Part shown: piece after piece, positions 3,273 through 49,586 of the stretch | How the letters are laid out: each line of letters starts with the position of its first letter | How positions within the stretch are numbered: position 1 is the first letter of the stretch | Origin: Escherichia coli | GTDB taxonomy: Bacteria > Pseudomonadota > Gammaproteobacteria > Enterobacterales > Enterobacteriaceae | NCBI RefSeq assembly: GCF_017348835.2 | Contig: NZ_CP072315.1 | Length of the DNA stretch: 64,000 nucleotides | Reading direction: 5' to 3' (one strand) | The notes under the pieces: generated by a model | What the model was told of the DNA's origin: nothing | The model's input: the letters and a program-made list of their open reading frames with translations, nothing else | Database searches by the model: none | Translations under genes and position numbers: made by a program

Positions 3273-3435
3273 AATGCCCTCCTTTGTATGTGATTATTAT
3301 ACCTGCTTCCATTGCAGGCCAAACAGGTTCGGTGTATGAAAAATAGACTTCTCTCCGGCGTATAGCAATCTACTTACTGATCTGTTTTCGTATCAAACTG
3401 TATGGCATAACCGAGGGGCGTACGTGGTGAGTCAG

Positions 3436-3446
3436 AAAGTTACTTT
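3436..3446. promoter_or_regulatory. AAAGTWACTTT palindromic motif copy
   Basis: aaagttacttt; about 160 bp upstream of the leftward gene starting at 3272. Confidence 0.5.
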
Positions 3447-3628
3447 TCCGTAATAGTTAATTTCAGATCCTTCTTCCAGTTACGCTTCAGTATAAAACCG
3501 ATACCCTCTAATTCAGCATCCTTCACGTTTAATACGCTTCACTTTAAGGCAGGGCTTTTCGGTTGATATGAATTCTTTTTCCGGTTGCTGGACATGGGTT
3601 TCATCCTGATAGTTAAAATTGCAGGCTA

Positions 3629-3931
3629 TCAGTCACCACCACCACCTCCTCCTCCTCCTCCTCCACCGCCACCATCACAACCACCAGCTATGCTATTTTC
3701 ACCATTACAATCACCTCCGAGGGGGTTCAAATGGCTGCTCCCCTGTAGATGGTGTCCTTGCCAGATCGAACCCGAACCAGCGCCTCCTGAGCGTCTTTGC
3801 TTGCCCTGAGGCAATTGTGCAGGCTCACCAGCACCGGCGGTCCCAAAAATGTCCCGGGCAATTTTATAAAGAAGGTAAAAAGGTACGCCCAGCATCATAA
3901 AAAAGATTACTGAAAATATTACACGTTCCAT
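3629..3931 (-). CDS. small Gly-rich membrane protein
   Basis: 100-aa ORF with N-terminal TM helix and a C-terminal run of 13 Gly encoded by the trinucleotide tract. Confidence 0.4.
   Translation of the reverse strand: MERVIFSVIFFMMLGVPFYLLYKIARDIFGTAGAGEPAQLPQGKQRRSGGAGSGSIWQGHHLQGSSHLNPLGGDCNGENSIAGGCDGGGGGGGGGGGGGD
3635..3690. repeat. trinucleotide simple-sequence tract (CCA/CCT)n
   Basis: caccaccaccacctcctcctcctcctcctccaccgccacc read directly; encodes a poly-Gly run in the minus-strand ORF. Confidence 0.8.
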
Positions 3932-4363
3932 TGATGATCTCCTGTCTTGTGAGAGACCAGTTATATCAGGGTGATTCAGTATTTCCGTTTAGAAAAGAGT
4001 ACTAATTTGGCCCTGTTCGATCTTAATTTGCCATCCGGGAAAAAGTCATAGGGATAGGCCTGCCAGAGTCAATAACTTCCAGTGATCTGGAGGAGACCCC
4101 GGCTCTCTGAGCCCTCATGGATGGTACGGCTTTACCCCCTGTAAACAGATTCACGTTCCGCAGGACAAACATCGACTACTGACGTCTCATATTTGCTGAC
4201 GCTAATCCGACGTCTCATTGCCGTCTGCTTGTTTTCTTTAAAGGGTGTATTAGACGAATATCAAATCGGAATGGTAGGGGATGTGTGGGCACCATGCCCG
4301 GCCCTCTTTGAGCATCTGAGAGATTGGAGACCTAGCCGGGTAAGATAGCTACTTTCTTACGGG

Positions 4364-4732
4364 TTACCCTTCAAATCCAAAGACGAAACGGACGCTGCCG
4401 TTCTCCACGTGGAGACGCTTTACTTCTTCGACAAATTCCTGGATCACCTCTCCGGCGTTATCGGGTGGTATGGCTGACAAAATTTCTTCCGAAGTCAGCC
4501 ATGAGTATGAATGTTCACCGAATAAATCATCATCTTCGGACGGTATATCATCAGGTAATCCGCGTAATGCGTGGATAAAAACTGCTGATGTGCTCGCCCT
4601 TTCACGATCTACATCAAATCCGAGCCAGGCAAAGTGGAGATATGATCGGTCCCCTTTATAATTGCTTGATAAATTAATCCATTTACCAGGCTTTTCTTCC
4701 CTTTGAAATCGCCAGCAGATATCAACGCCCAT
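4364..4732 (-). CDS. hypothetical protein
   Basis: 122-aa ORF, no recognisable motif. Confidence 0.4.
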   Translation of the reverse strand: MGVDICWRFQREEKPGKWINLSSNYKGDRSYLHFAWLGFDVDRERASTSAVFIHALRGLPDDIPSEDDDLFGEHSYSWLTSEEILSAIPPDNAGEVIQEFVEEVKRLHVENGSVRFVFGFEG

Positions 4733-7209: not shown

Positions 7210-8394
7210 TCATGACTGTCCCTTGTTCATCTTATCAGCATGCTTACGCAGGTACTCTTTCAGGTCAGCATGAGCGTTGATGATATCGTTCATTTCATCA
7301 TTGGTCAGAACAAGCGTGTAAGTATCAGTACTGACAGATTCACCTTCTTTAAGCTTGGCTTCTTCAGCAATACGTTCAAAAATCGGGATCGCGGTGTCTG
7401 CAATGACGGTCACAGTCTTTTTGTTCAGAACGCTGGACATGGAAGGTGCTTTACCTGCCGGGTTCTGTTTAGGAGCGCTGTCCTTTGGAGCTGGAGCCGG
7501 TTCCTGTACCGGTGGCGTATCCAGCGTCTCCGTATTGCTTTCATCGTTCAGTTGATCCGGTACCGGGGTGTTATCGGTAGTATCATCTGCCGGTTGCTCA
7601 GCACCGATGTTTTCCGGAGTCTGCGGATCTGCCATGCGCTCTTCTACCTTGGCAGCTTTGACGAATTTCAGCGTGTTTTTCGTCGCCTTGCCATAGATGG
7701 AGATCGCTTTGTTGATGTTATCTACCGCATCCTCACCGCTGTACATATACTCGTCCAGTGCAACGTACATGCTCACCTGATCGCTCACAAGCATGGTCTG
7801 TAGTTCAGAAGGCAGGTCCAGTACGCGAACCATCTGGCGAAGATGCTGCTCTGATTTACCACGTTTTTTTGCCAGTTCCGCAAAGGTCTTAGGCTCTTCT
7901 TTATCTTCAACCAGACGCTTAATTGAAAGCGCTTCAGCTACGACAGACAGCGCCAGGTTGGAGTTGCCGGTCAGGGTGAAGAGTTCTGCTTTTGAAGCGC
8001 TACCGCGAAACTCTTCGCAGCGAATACGAGTAATGCGTTCACGCCCTTCTGCTTCCAGCTGGCGGTTTGCAATAGCGATGGAACGGATACGGCAAGCCCC
8101 CTGACGCAGTACAGGTACGCCATTAACCATCTGAACAACGATAGGCGTCACGCTGAACGGGTCTTCCATGTAGGCATCGGCCAGGCTGTTCAGGTGTTCC
8201 ACAACGTGAGGCATTGAATAGTAGAGCTCGCCCATACCGGCCGTGCGGGTGTTAAAGCCTTCCTGCTCTACAACAACCGAAGGGTCAATGATAAGGCCGT
8301 TGCCTTTACGGGCACCGTTACCAGTGCGTTCCAGGTAACCACGAAGGCTGATTTCGTTGCTGTTGTTTTTTACTTCAGTTTCGATTGCGGACAT
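7210..8394 (-). CDS. ParB/Srx-domain (ParB-like nuclease) protein
   Basis: N-terminal ParB-like block (GFNTR ... VVQMVNGVPVLRQGACRIRSIAIA), paralogous to the ORFs at 55984..57147 and 60358..61413; Pro/acidic linker; two palindromic motif copies upstream. Confidence 0.7.
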   Translation of the reverse strand: MSAIETEVKNNSNEISLRGYLERTGNGARKGNGLIIDPSVVVEQEGFNTRTAGMGELYYSMPHVVEHLNSLADAYMEDPFSVTPIVVQMVNGVPVLRQGACRIRSIAIANRQLEAEGRERITRIRCEEFRGSASKAELFTLTGNSNLALSVVAEALSIKRLVEDKEEPKTFAELAKKRGKSEQHLRQMVRVLDLPSELQTMLVSDQVSMYVALDEYMYSGEDAVDNINKAISIYGKATKNTLKFVKAAKVEERMADPQTPENIGAEQPADDTTDNTPVPDQLNDESNTETLDTPPVQEPAPAPKDSAPKQNPAGKAPSMSSVLNKKTVTVIADTAIPIFERIAEEAKLKEGESVSTDTYTLVLTNDEMNDIINAHADLKEYLRKHADKMNKGQS

Positions 8395-45997: not shown

Positions 45998-47316
45998 ATG
46001 ACAGTGGTAGTGATGGATAGGCTCATTTCCATTGTCGTCATTTTATCGGACAAGCCTCTTCGTCCTACAGGTTTAAGCTGACAATGGTAGTGATTGGATG
46101 ATCTCACTACTGTTGTCACTCAGTTCTTTGAGCGGACCCTTCCCTCGGTTGGTCGGCATTAACAACGGTAGTGACTCGATTGGCTCACTGCCATTGTCAT
46201 CGTGTAAATGACGTACCTTATCAGCTCAGCTGAAAGCAATGACAACGGTAGTGACTCTAATTGCTCACTGCCATTGTCGTCGTGTCTATTGAGAGCCTTA
46301 TCAGTGCACCTGAAAAGCAATGACAACGGTAGTGATTCTAATGGCTCACTACCGTTGTCACCGTGTGTATTGAGAGGATGGTCCACTTAACTGGACGTAT
46401 ATGACAATGGTAGTGACTTTAATAGCTCACTACCATTGTCGGTGTGTGAATTGAGAGGATGAGCAGCTCAGCTGTACGTCCATGACAATGGTAATGACTT
46501 AATGAGCTCACTACCGTTGTCACCCTGTTAATTAAGAGGCTCATCTGCTCTTCTGGAAGGCTATGACAACGGAAGTGACTTGCTGGGCTCACTGCCATTG
46601 TCGCCGTATGAATTGAGAGGATCATCCGCTCTTCTGGATGGCAATGACAACGGTAATGACTTAATAGGCTCACTACCATTGTCACCCTGTGAATTGAGAG
46701 GATGATCTGCTTAACCAGACGGCCATGACAACGGTAGTGACTTTCTGGGCTCAATACCGTTGTCACCCTGTGAGTTAAGAGGTTGACCCGCTCTACTGGA
46801 CGGCCATGACAACGGTAGTCACTTTCTGGGCTCACTACCGTTGTCGCCATATAGAATGAGAGGAGCATCAGCTCAACTGAACGGCAATGACTACAGTAAT
46901 GAGCTGGATGAAGCATAACCATTGACATCTGGCCCAACCGGAAGCCGTATTCGCCAATCCAATCGAGATTCACAATGGCCGTGACTCGCCGCATTAAGTT
47001 CCGGTGTCCTCCTAAAGCTGAACGCACACTCGGAGGACAATGACAATGCCAGTAAGGTACACATCATTACCATTGTCACTATAGCTACCAGAGAAGCCGG
47101 GATTTGAATGTCGATGGTAGTGAGTGGGTCAACTCACTGCCATTGTCACCCCGTTACGATATTTTCCGTTGGATGTACTGGCCAATGAAGTAAAGCGTAG
47201 AAACCGGGTGTTAACAGGTGACTCAGGAGAAAGCGTTGAATTTCGCAATCTCGATCTACATAGGGTGGTAGAGAACAATGACAACGGTAATGACTTTTGA
47301 CTCATTACCGTTGACG
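45998..47316. repeat. array of about 16 head-to-head iteron pairs with about 80-82 bp phasing
   Basis: Units of TGACAACGGTAGTGAC, 8-11 bp spacer, GCTCACTACCGTTGTCA beginning near 46080, 46163, 46240, 46320, 46401, 46481, 46562, 46642, 46724, 46806 plus degenerate copies; the half-site matches the 21-bp iterons upstream of repA. Confidence 0.8.
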
Positions 47317-48690: not shown

Positions 48691-48800
48691 ATGAAAAGTC
48701 ACTACTATTGTCGCTCTGATCACTACTGATGTCAAAAAACTCATTACCAACGTTATAATAATCACTACTAATGTCAAAATAATCACTACTGTTGTCACTG
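48691..48800. repeat. five 21-22 bp direct iterons (origin set 1)
   Basis: tcactact(a/g)ttgtc-like repeats at about 21-bp spacing upstream of repA. Confidence 0.7.
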
Positions 48801-49094: not shown

Positions 49095-49215
49095 CCTCAC
49101 AGTGGAAGTTTAAGTCTAACCTCACTACCATTGTCACTTAAAATCATTACCAACGTCGAAATAGTCTCTACCATTGTCTTTTAAGTCACTCCCGTTGTCA
49201 CTTATGTCGCTACTG
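49095..49215. repeat. five 21-22 bp direct iterons (origin set 2)
   Basis: Second block of the same iteron followed by a sequence related to that after set 1. Confidence 0.7.
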
Positions 49216-49586
49216 TTGTCAGTGACAATGCTCCAGCCCAGTAACCATGCGGCCTACAGCGTACCGGGATCTTCTTTGTACTCTCTGGCACCTTTGGGAT
49301 CATTTATTGGATCTACATGAGGGATAAAATCTTTTGACGATTTCGTAGTGCAGTTATACCAGCGACTTAGCAAGACAAAAGCTGCAATTTAGTGACGAGT
49401 TACTAGTCTGCCCAACAAGAGCAATGCAGAGAAGATATGTGGTGAAATGACCATGGTAGTGAGTCTAATCACTACCATGGTCCGCAGTAAGCGTTACTTA
49501 CGCAATGAACGTCGGACTGATTTGCAACAACATGGGCTACGGCGCATCAGAAGGCGGCCGTTGTGCTTCAGCAAAACAGCCCTGCT

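What the first reader, a model, noticed from the sequence alone, without database searches (positions are those of the whole stretch)
3635..3690. Trinucleotide repeat encoding a poly-glycine tail in a small membrane protein
A (CCT)/(CCA) tract of about 50 bp gives the ORF at 3629..3931 a run of 13 glycines. Triplet tracts can expand or contract by slipped-strand mispairing without breaking the frame, making this a potential length-variable locus.
Basis: seen in the sequence. Interest (0 to 1): 0.35.

Follow-up and report, generated by a model that had tools for sequence, protein, structure and literature searches.

The report
Variable glycine-repeat tail, IncHI2 plasmid gene
A small gene of unknown function on a widespread family of drug-resistance plasmids ends in a real triplet repeat whose length differs between otherwise identical plasmids (3 to 17 glycines), which makes it an ordinary in-frame microsatellite and a possible typing marker, not an on/off switch.

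Summary
Window 3635-3673 (minus strand) is GGT GGC GGT (GGA)6 (GGT)4. It encodes 13 glycines, then Asp and stop, at the end of the 100-aa ORF 3629..3931. It is the only period-3 array in the window, and shuffled sequence gives no match. The window is IncHI2 plasmid backbone, 100% identical to pSTM6-275.

Related plasmids carry at least 13 uninterrupted DNA alleles, written (GGA)n(GGT)m with n=2-8 and m=4-11. Glycine runs are 3, 9, 10, 11, 12, 13, 14, 15 or 17. Four of these plasmids were aligned over 401 bases and are identical outside the tract. Apart from one +1 base in a sparsely annotated assembly, every indel inside the tract is a multiple of three. An R478-type lineage has a GAC (Asp) interruption, and only three variants of it were seen.

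The variation is slow. Two alleles account for about 93% of 975 plasmids.

The protein has one confident N-terminal helix and a disordered Gly/Ser-rich tail. It has no homologue outside IncHI2. Its C-terminal half is repeatedly lost: Tn10 in R478, a frameshift allele, and a deletion.

Most likely this is a weakly constrained accessory membrane protein whose tail drifts by replication slippage. Expression and function remain untested. At least 651 draft-assembly contigs end at the tract.

The parts
3629..3931 (-). 100-aa ORF, annotated elsewhere as hypothetical protein WP_000442694.1. It has an N-terminal membrane helix, a disordered Gly/Ser/Gln-rich tail, a Cys75-x9-Cys85 pair, then 13 Gly, Asp and stop.
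   Evidence: The ORF list gives it directly. PGAP annotates it in pSTM6-275 and other plasmids. It starts with ATG preceded by AGGAG. pN/pS over codons 1-80 is 0.30, 0.20 and 0.59 against three diverged relatives. It has no Pfam, NCBIfam, PHROG or PADLOC family. It has no homologue outside IncHI2 among 1.84 billion representative proteins.
3635..3673 (-). Poly-glycine coding microsatellite, GGT GGC GGT (GGA)6 (GGT)4, residues 87-99. The (GGT)4 sub-tract is at 3635-3646 and the (GGA)6 sub-tract at 3647-3664.
   Evidence: Supported by the sequence, TRF and the shuffle control. The allele series (GGA)2-8(GGT)4-11 comes.
3836..3928 (-). Codons 2-32, the predicted single transmembrane or anchor helix (ERVIFSVIFFMMLGVPFYLLYKIARDIFGTA).
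   Evidence: Kyte-Doolittle mean is 2.24 for residues 4-22. AlphaFold2 gives a helix over residues 2-32 with mean pLDDT 87-94; the rest of the protein scores below 55.
3677..3709 (-). Cys75 to Cys85 (C-NGENSIAGG-C), the only two cysteines, directly before the Gly run.
   Evidence: Seen in the translation. Both cysteines are kept in all full-length relatives, including the 90%-identical ones. A disulfide is inferred only.
3939..3943 (-). Shine-Dalgarno AGGAG, 7 nt upstream of the ATG.
   Evidence: Read directly from the sequence. It is invariant in seven aligned plasmids.
3960..3968 (-). Candidate extended -10 promoter element TGATATAAC (TGnTATAAC), about 30 nt upstream of the ATG.
   Evidence: Found by eye in the upstream sequence printed. 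The consensus scan did not report it because there is no good -35. This is inference only.
3785..3793 (.). Tn10 insertion site in plasmid R478. The 9-bp target duplication is TCCTGAGCG, within codons 47-49 of the ORF.
   Evidence: BLAST of the window against R478 gives two blocks that overlap by 9 bp, with 9.1 kb of IS10-tetB-IS10 between them. The resulting 64-aa fusion protein P0013 reads into the IS10 end (LMNPLMIFIKIIKLR) and is on 460 contigs.
3721..3725 (-). C5 homopolymer (codons 69-71, AAC CCC CTC) where a -1 frameshift allele arises.
   Evidence: Protein P0039 (80 aa, 81 contigs) ends ...NPSEVIVMVKIA. That is exactly the -1 frame reading after loss of one C. I inferred this from the protein and did not check the DNA.
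3658..3876 (.). A 219-bp stretch deleted in plasmid pEGY49_MCR-1.1. One deletion end lies inside the TCC/GGA sub-tract.
   Evidence: Shown by BLAST and the junction sequence. The junction creates TGA at codon 19, so this is a null allele, and no CDS is annotated there.

Best explanation
The ORF is a real but weakly constrained accessory gene of the IncHI2 plasmid backbone. It encodes a single-pass, membrane-anchored protein: an N-terminal hydrophobic helix followed by about 70 residues of flexible Gly/Ser/Gln-rich tail ending in Cys-x9-Cys, Asp, Gly(n), Asp.

The tail's last segment is encoded by two abutting triplet microsatellites, (GGA)n and (GGT)m. During replication these gain or lose whole codons by slipped-strand mispairing. 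The protein therefore stays in frame while the glycine run changes length. The changes appear to be tolerated rather than used: they are near-neutral drift in a disordered, dispensable tail. The locus is not a phase-variation switch.

The ancestral tail was probably an Asp-interrupted Gly repeat, as in R478 and more distant relatives. Loss of the interrupting GAC codon gave a pure tract that slips more readily.

Shown: the tract exists, it is polymorphic, natural alleles keep the frame, the family is restricted to IncHI2, and the C-terminal half is dispensable.

Inferred: the slippage mechanism, membrane location, translation of the ORF, and neutrality of the length changes.
For: Polymorphism.
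- Alleles (n,m) seen are (6,4) in the window, then (8,4), (5,4), (4,4), (2,4), (5,5), (4,5), (5,6), (4,6), (3,6), (4,7), (3,11), and a 3-Gly form.
- A 10-Gly protein sits on 16 contigs and an 11-Gly protein on 210.
- Many alleles are one repeat unit away from another allele, and the two sub-tracts vary independently.
- The window, pF138-1, RHB20 and pSH111_227 are identical over the other 362 aligned bases yet carry four different tracts.
- The same allele recurs in independent complete assemblies: (4,6) in pSH111_227, E1 p1 and pAPEC-O1-R; (5,6) in pF138-1 and pYLMB30a. The alleles are therefore inherited, not read errors.

Interruption goes with few variants. About 445 of 975 PLSDB records fall in the identity band dominated by the GAC-interrupted R478-type allele, and I saw only three variants of it. 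The pure-tract lineage of roughly 520 records yields the 13 alleles.

Coding.
- The ORF has ATG, AGGAG and a strongly hydrophobic helix.
- pN/pS is 0.2-0.6, and 10 of 19 variable sites are at third codon positions.
- The gene has the same orientation as the surrounding gene array.

Dispensable tail.
- Tn10 sits inside the ORF in R478, which PLSDB types as conjugative.
- A -1 frameshift allele is on 81 contigs and a 68-aa form on 21.
- pEGY49 carries a null deletion.

No relatives or family were found.
Against: - No expression, localisation or phenotype data were found.
- pN/pS cannot separate the Gly frame from the antisense poly-Pro frame (3585..3809, + strand). That frame shares wobble positions with the Gly frame and stays open in all relatives.
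- The consensus scan found no promoter upstream and no terminator downstream.
- Neutrality is argued only from dispensability and disorder. The dominance of two alleles across hundreds of plasmids could also reflect stabilising selection on length.
- Slippage was not observed directly, and no read-level or passage data were available.
Confidence: 0.65

Rival explanations
1. The tract is an adaptive tuning knob. The length of the glycine tail adjusts the activity or reach of a membrane or envelope protein involved in plasmid-host or plasmid-plasmid interaction, such as exclusion, mating-pair contacts or fitness cost. Different lengths are selected in different hosts, making this a contingency-like locus with graded rather than on/off output.
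For: - Event density in the tract is far higher than in the flanks: at least 13 alleles in 39 nt, against one or two SNPs in about 360 nt.
- The tract is kept as perfect repeats instead of decaying through synonymous changes.
- The range is wide, 3 to 17 Gly.
- The gene lies beside the Tra1 transfer genes: the coupling protein, an S49 peptidase and a NERD protein.
Against: - Two alleles cover about 93% of plasmids across E. coli, Salmonella, Klebsiella and Enterobacter, and across plasmid sequence types ST2, ST3 and ST4. Length does not track host.
- The whole C-terminal half is lost in successful lineages: Tn10 on 460 contigs and a frameshift on 81.
- No phenotype is known.
Confidence: 0.15
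2. The ORF is not translated. The tract matters, if at all, as DNA or RNA. It is a homopurine/homopyrimidine, G-rich stretch able to form H-DNA or a two-tier G-quadruplex, which could act as a fragile site, a replication pause site or a structured transcript.
For: - One deletion (pEGY49) begins inside the tract.
- At least 651 draft contigs end at the tract, which could reflect polymerase trouble.
- ViennaRNA with its G-quadruplex option places G4 elements on the tract, but the energy it printed looks unreliable.
- The scan found no consensus promoter.
- The family is an orphan with no known fold.
Against: - Natural length changes are all multiples of three. The reading frame, the ATG, the SD and the terminal GAC-TGA are kept in all 26 full-length tract sequences I read, apart from one +1 base insertion, and the gene is annotated across the PLSDB hits listed.
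- Substitutions favour third codon positions.
- The N-terminal 30 codons encode a near-ideal membrane helix, which is unlikely by chance.
- Rfam gives only a sub-threshold hit (24 bits against a cut-off of 49). The 5' hairpin folds no better than shuffled sequence, z = 0.8.
Confidence: 0.1
3. The apparent length variation is a sequencing or assembly artefact of a difficult low-complexity stretch.
For: - Draft assemblies often break here.
- Single-contig variants carry odd substitutions inside the tract (Val, Arg, Glu, Cys).
- One complete record has a +1 base in the tract. It has only 185 annotated features in 278 kb, which suggests low-quality consensus.
Against: - Identical non-reference alleles recur in independent complete plasmids from different laboratories and technologies.
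- Non-reference alleles also recur on tens to hundreds of contigs: 11 Gly on 210, 9 Gly on 30, 10 Gly on 16.
- Changes are whole repeat units only.
Confidence: 0.03

Closest known systems
Simple-sequence contingency loci of bacterial pathogens, such as Haemophilus influenzae lic/mod tetranucleotide tracts and Neisseria opa CTCTT tracts (named from my own knowledge; not compared here)
   Same: A perfect short tandem repeat lies inside a coding region. It changes copy number between close relatives, most plausibly by slipped-strand mispairing. The tract is far more mutable than its flanks.
   Different: Those repeats have units not divisible by three, or they sit in promoters, so they switch expression on and off at high frequency. 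Here the unit is a codon, natural alleles stay in frame, and two alleles dominate hundreds of plasmids. The result is neither a switch nor fast variation.
In-frame codon-repeat polymorphisms in bacterial proteins, such as the Gly-rich PGRS domains of mycobacterial PE_PGRS proteins and the Ser-Asp repeat regions of staphylococcal Clf/Sdr adhesins (from my own knowledge)
   Same: Repeated codons encode a flexible low-complexity region whose length differs between strains while the frame is kept. In PE_PGRS the repeats are also GGN Gly codons.
   Different: Those are large surface proteins with long repeat arrays and known roles as stalks or antigens. This is a 100-aa plasmid orphan with a 9-51 nt tract at the extreme C-terminus and no known function.
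Stabilisation of triplet repeats by interruptions, such as AGG in FMR1 CGG tracts and CAA in polyQ tracts (from my own knowledge)
   Same: The GAC-interrupted R478-type tract showed only three variants. The uninterrupted lineage shows at least 13 alleles.
   Different: This is a bacterial plasmid with very short tracts. No expansion threshold and no disease-like gain of function are involved.
Gly/Ser-rich disordered regions of colicin translocation domains and class II microcins (from my own knowledge)
   Same: The composition of the tail resembles them (GSGSIWQGHHLQGSS..., Gly runs, a C-terminal Cys pair as in microcin V).
   Different: The protein has no double-glycine leader; its N-terminus is a hydrophobic helix instead. 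No exporter, immunity or lysis gene family was detected among the neighbours. The exhaustive search gave only compositional hits to long repetitive proteins.
IncHI2 plasmid double-locus typing loci smr0018 and smr0199 (PMC11058233, PMC8417528)
   Same: These are polymorphic backbone loci of the same plasmid family, and smr0199 lies near the same Tra1 transfer genes.
   Different: This is a different locus. Plasmid NZ_CP021727 is scored as lacking smr0199 ('3_NT'), yet it is 100% identical to window 3300-4300. ST2, ST3 and ST4 plasmids all share the window's tract allele.

Membership tests
Phase-variable simple-sequence contingency locus | A perfect short tandem repeat within a gene or its promoter | tested here: met
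   (GGA)6(GGT)4 lies inside ORF 3629..3931.
Phase-variable simple-sequence contingency locus | Repeat number differs among closely related isolates | tested here: met
   At least 13 uninterrupted alleles were found. Four of the plasmids carrying them, aligned over 401 bases, are identical outside the tract.
Phase-variable simple-sequence contingency locus | A change of repeat number switches expression on or off, by frameshift or by promoter spacing | tested here: not met
   The unit is 3 nt and every natural allele keeps the frame and the terminal GAC-TGA. The single +1 case is in a poorly annotated assembly.
Phase-variable simple-sequence contingency locus | High-frequency, reversible switching within one clonal population | not testable with these tools
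   No reads or passage data were available. Two alleles cover about 93% of 975 plasmids, which argues for a low rate.
In-frame coding microsatellite (homo-amino-acid tract length polymorphism) | Tandem identical codons encoding a homopolymeric run | tested here: met
   13 consecutive Gly codons include six tandem GGA and four tandem GGT.
In-frame coding microsatellite (homo-amino-acid tract length polymorphism) | Alleles differ by whole repeat units in a stepwise series, and the frame is retained | tested here: met
   n = 2, 3, 4, 5, 6, 8 and m = 4, 5, 6, 7, 11. Gly runs are 3, 9-15 and 17.
In-frame coding microsatellite (homo-amino-acid tract length polymorphism) | The ORF is actually translated | tested here: inconclusive
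   ATG, AGGAG, the membrane helix, pN/pS of 0.2-0.6 and a third-position bias support translation. The antisense poly-Pro frame cannot be excluded by pN/pS or by stop codons. No expression data were found.
Class II microcin / bacteriocin precursor | N-terminal double-glycine leader, with a dedicated exporter and immunity genes nearby | tested here: not met
   The N-terminus is a hydrophobic helix. The neighbours have no transporter, peptidase C39 or immunity family hits.
Type I toxin-antitoxin small membrane toxin (Hok-like) | A hydrophobic peptide of fewer than about 60 aa, with an overlapping or adjacent antisense RNA | tested here: not met
   The protein is 100 aa. Rfam finds no antitoxin RNA; the only hit is sub-threshold, Mu-gpT-DE at 24 bits against a cut-off of 49.
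IncHI2 pDLST typing locus smr0199 | The same sequence as the typing allele | tested here: not met
   NZ_CP021727 lacks smr0199 according to the PMC11058233 supplement, yet it is 100% identical over window 3300-4300. This is indirect evidence because the allele sequence itself was not available.

The most novel reading that the evidence does not exclude
The glycine tract is a selected, graded 'tuning' microsatellite on the backbone of a conjugative resistance plasmid. Tail length of a membrane-anchored orphan protein would modulate a plasmid trait such as transfer efficiency, exclusion or the cost imposed on the host. The many contig breaks at the tract would then reflect real within-culture length heterogeneity rather than sequencing trouble. 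That would make it a contingency-like locus carried by the plasmid itself.
Probability: 0.08. Interest if true: 0.6.

Novelty: new member of a known kind. Interest (0 to 1): 0.3.

Why it matters
IncHI2 plasmids are major carriers of mcr-1, mcr-9, blaCTX-M and metal-resistance genes in Salmonella, E. coli and Enterobacter.

Typing. Their backbone is so conserved that the standard two-locus scheme resolves only a few types. A codon microsatellite with at least 13 alleles could add resolution within ST2, ST3 and ST4 outbreaks, in the way VNTR markers do for chromosomes.

Assembly. The tract is also a practical hazard, because hundreds of short-read assemblies break there. Single-contig 'variants' inside it should not be trusted.

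Biology. The finding is modest. It is a clean natural example of pure versus interrupted triplet-repeat stability in a bacterial plasmid, sitting in an orphan membrane protein that nobody has studied. It does not open a new mechanism unless tail length turns out to have a phenotype.

Tried and rejected
1. Known families. Pfam, NCBIfam, PHROGs and PADLOC gave nothing for the ORF, and almost nothing for nine neighbours apart from a ParB-like protein.

2. Remote homology. A word-indexed search of 5.8 billion proteins and an exhaustive HMMER scan of 1.84 billion representatives found only IncHI2 copies, plus compositional hits to long repetitive proteins.

3. Structure. AlphaFold2 gives one helix and disorder, so I ran no fold search.

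4. Identity with the typing locus smr0199. Rejected indirectly. R478 under BX664015 and pMG101-A were not in the collections.

5. A regulatory RNA or an SD-sequestering hairpin in the 5' leader. The Rfam hit is sub-threshold, and the fold is no better than shuffles, z = 0.8.

6. Promoter and terminator scan. Nothing was found for this gene. By eye I saw only a TGnTATAAC element.

7. Separating the Gly frame from the antisense Pro frame by pN/pS or by stop codons. This is not possible, because the two frames share wobble positions and both stay open.

8. Expression evidence in the literature. Searches for the protein accessions, IncHI2 transcriptomes, pSTM6-275, and repeat or glycine terms found nothing usable.

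9. G-quadruplex prediction with ViennaRNA. The output energy (-70.9) and notation look unreliable, so I did not use it as evidence.

10. Exact look-up of the two commonest alleles in the 15-billion-protein collection. Neither was found, although both are annotated in the PLSDB records I fetched. I therefore could not estimate what fraction of draft assemblies break at the tract.

Full report
**Where the window comes from.** The 1-kb region around the finding is 100% identical to dozens of IncHI2 plasmids and matches 985 PLSDB records, mostly from Escherichia, Salmonella and Enterobacter; 954 are typed as conjugative. The window is collinear with pSTM6-275. The ORF lies just beyond the Tra1 transfer genes: the TraD coupling protein, a DUF4400 protein, an S49 peptidase and a NERD protein. 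It sits near the start of a long run of co-oriented, mostly small unknown genes. That run also contains a ParB-like protein, an orphan DNA methyltransferase and a PAPS-reductase-family protein.

**The observation.** On the minus strand, 3635-3673 reads GGT GGC GGT (GGA)6 (GGT)4. This is 13 glycine codons (residues 87-99), followed by GAC (Asp100) and TGA. Tandem Repeats Finder calls a period-3 array at 3634-3686, the only one in the 64 kb. The pattern (GGN)13 is found only here and never in 100 shuffles.

**Is the ORF real?**
- It has an ATG preceded at 7 nt by AGGAG (3939-3943).
- Its first 30 residues form a strongly hydrophobic segment. Kyte-Doolittle is 2.24 for residues 4-22, and AlphaFold2 gives a helix over residues 2-32 at pLDDT about 90 with everything after it disordered.
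- It has the same orientation as its neighbours and is annotated by PGAP in the plasmids I fetched.
- Against three diverged relatives (L011, L012, L008), pN/pS over codons 1-80 is 0.30, 0.20 and 0.59. Ten of 19 variable sites are third positions.
- One caveat applies. The antisense poly-proline frame (3585..3809, + strand, TTG start, no SD) shares wobble positions and stays open in all relatives, so these statistics cannot exclude it. The start signals and the membrane helix favour the Gly frame.
- I found no expression data.

**Length variation.** I read the tract in 26 related sequences: complete plasmids and assembly contigs.

| Allele (GGA)n(GGT)m | Gly run | Seen in |
|---|---|---|
| (6,4) | 13 | the window |
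| (8,4) | 15 | pCUPSTF6_1_01 |
| (5,4) | 12 | pEC09-NDM-5 |
| (4,4) | 11 | pRHB16-C14_2 |
| (2,4) | 9 | three contigs (L027-L029) |
| (5,5) | 13 | pE300081_246 |
| (4,5) | 12 | pN1566-2 |
| (5,6) | 14 | pF138-1, pYLMB30a |
| (4,6) | 13 | pSH111_227, E1 p1, pAPEC-O1-R |
| (3,6) | 12 | RHB20-E4-C04 |
| (4,7) | 14 | pEC261_1 |
| (3,11) | 17 | pP136-1 |
| GGT GGT GGT | 3 | two contigs (L030, L031) |

Protein look-ups add a 10-Gly form on 16 contigs and show the 11-Gly form on 210 contigs. Every indel in the alleles I read lies inside the tract. All are multiples of three except one +1 base in a sparsely annotated assembly. Four plasmids that are identical over the other 362 aligned bases carry four different tracts. 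The series is stepwise, and the two sub-tracts vary independently. This is the signature of replication slippage, although slippage itself was not observed.

**Interrupted alleles.** A second major lineage (R478, pEC-IMP; sequence type ST1 in the PMC11058233 supplement) has GGT GGC GGT GGA GGA GGT GAC GGA (GGT)4, which encodes 6 Gly, Asp, 5 Gly. I saw only three variants of it: 5G-D-5G, 6G-D-6G, and a more distant CDGGDGGGDGGGD tail. The tail therefore looks ancestrally like an Asp-punctuated Gly repeat. The pure tract is a derived and more slippery state.

**How variable is it?** I used a 95-nt probe (the tract plus 28-nt flanks) against 975 PLSDB records.
- 464 records match at 99% or better, which is the window allele.
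- 445 fall in the 90-95% band, nearly all the R478-type allele at 92.6%.
- 54 fall at 95-99%.
- 12 fall at 80-90%.

In 243 E. coli complete-genome records the figures are 196, 19, 25 and 3, in the same order. The window allele is shared by ST2, ST3 and ST4 plasmids. The tract is therefore a clear mutational hot spot relative to its flanks. It is still slow on the scale of plasmid epidemiology, and it cannot act as an on/off switch.

**What the protein might do.** No family matches in Pfam, NCBIfam, PHROGs or PADLOC. The only relatives among 5.8 billion clustered proteins and 1.84 billion representatives are IncHI2 copies.

The C-terminal half is repeatedly lost.
- In R478, Tn10 sits in codons 47-49 with a 9-bp target duplication at window 3785-3793. 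This gives a 64-aa fusion protein found on 460 contigs.
- A -1 frameshift in the C5 run (3721-3725) is on 81 contigs, and a 68-aa form on 21.
- pEGY49 has a 219-bp deletion (3658-3876) that starts in the tract and creates a stop at codon 19.

R478 and pEGY49 are typed as conjugative. The gene, and certainly its tail, is therefore not needed for maintenance, and probably not for transfer.

I conclude it is a weakly constrained accessory membrane-anchored protein with a disordered tail, in which tract length drifts. Its function is unknown. A tuning role for tail length is possible but unsupported.

**Not the known typing locus.** The IncHI2 double-locus scheme uses smr0018 and smr0199, and smr0199 lies near Tra1 (PMC11058233). 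Plasmid NZ_CP021727 is scored as lacking smr0199, yet it is 100% identical over window 3300-4300. The tract is therefore a separate locus, and I found no description of it in the searched literature.

**Assembly breaks.** At least 651 contigs from draft assemblies end inside or right at the tract. These are partial proteins of 86-94 aa on contigs up to 360 kb. I confirmed this on eight contigs. All 31-mers across the tract are unique, so repeat collapse does not explain the breaks. The cause is either poor Illumina data on this G-rich stretch or real length heterogeneity in cultures. Odd single-contig substitutions inside the tract point to the technical explanation, but only raw reads can decide.

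**Verdict.** The feature is an ordinary in-frame coding microsatellite, a new member of a known kind. It has practical value as a typing marker and as an assembly warning, and only a small chance of being a functional tuning locus.

Noticed in passing
window 3785-3793; R478 locus L010 613-9761: In the archetype plasmid R478, Tn10 (IS10-tetB-IS10) is inserted inside this ORF with a 9-bp target duplication TCCTGAGCG. By my recollection this is close to the Tn10 consensus NGCTNAGCN. The resulting 64-aa fusion protein occurs on 460 contigs.
   Followed up: yes
window 3635-3676 (contig ends in L019-L026): At least 651 draft-assembly contigs, from both Logan and NCBI, end inside or right at the glycine tract. 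Four Logan contigs stop at exactly the same base, after (GGA)3GG. The cause is undetermined: sequencing trouble or real heterogeneity.
   Followed up: partly
window 46155-46902: There is an array of about nine 81-bp repeats (also scored as three 243-bp units, 76-77% matches). It lies between an Ig-like-domain gene and repHI2 when mapped onto pSTM6-275, and it looks like replication iterons. Further 21-bp repeats are at 48719-48797 and 49163-49221.
   Followed up: no
window 4364-4732: The neighbouring 122-aa gene on the minus strand is absent from the diverged relative L011 (ERR1822337) but present in L012. It has weak matches to two phage families of unknown function (phrog_10141 and phrog_17909).
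   Followed up: no
window 2569-38388 (minus strand): A run of about 35 kb consists almost entirely of co-oriented small unknown genes. It also holds a ParB-like protein (7210-8394), an HNH endonuclease, a 2.4-kb PAPS-reductase-family gene, an orphan DNA methyltransferase and a RelE/ParE toxin. The composition is reminiscent of plasmid leading or establishment regions. The direction of transfer was not determined.
   Followed up: no
window 3929-3971 (minus strand): A sub-threshold Rfam match to Mu-gpT-DE RNA (24.4 bits against a cut-off of 49, E = 0.008) overlaps the ribosome-binding site. The local hairpin folds no better than shuffled sequence (z = 0.8), so this is probably chance.
   Followed up: yes
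protein collection look-ups: The two commonest alleles (13 Gly, WP_000442694.1; 6G-D-5G, WP_000442693.1) are not found by exact look-up in the 15-billion-protein collection, while rarer 9-, 10- and 11-Gly alleles are. This is either a database gap or a sign that the longer tracts rarely assemble from short reads.
   Followed up: partly
L008 (Logan SRR26673770), 424-744: The most diverged relative (90% protein identity) has a 1-nt deletion just before the Cys-Gly tail. Without that deletion its tail would read CDGGDGGGDGGGD. It could be a pseudogene or an assembly error on a 1-kb contig.
   Followed up: partly
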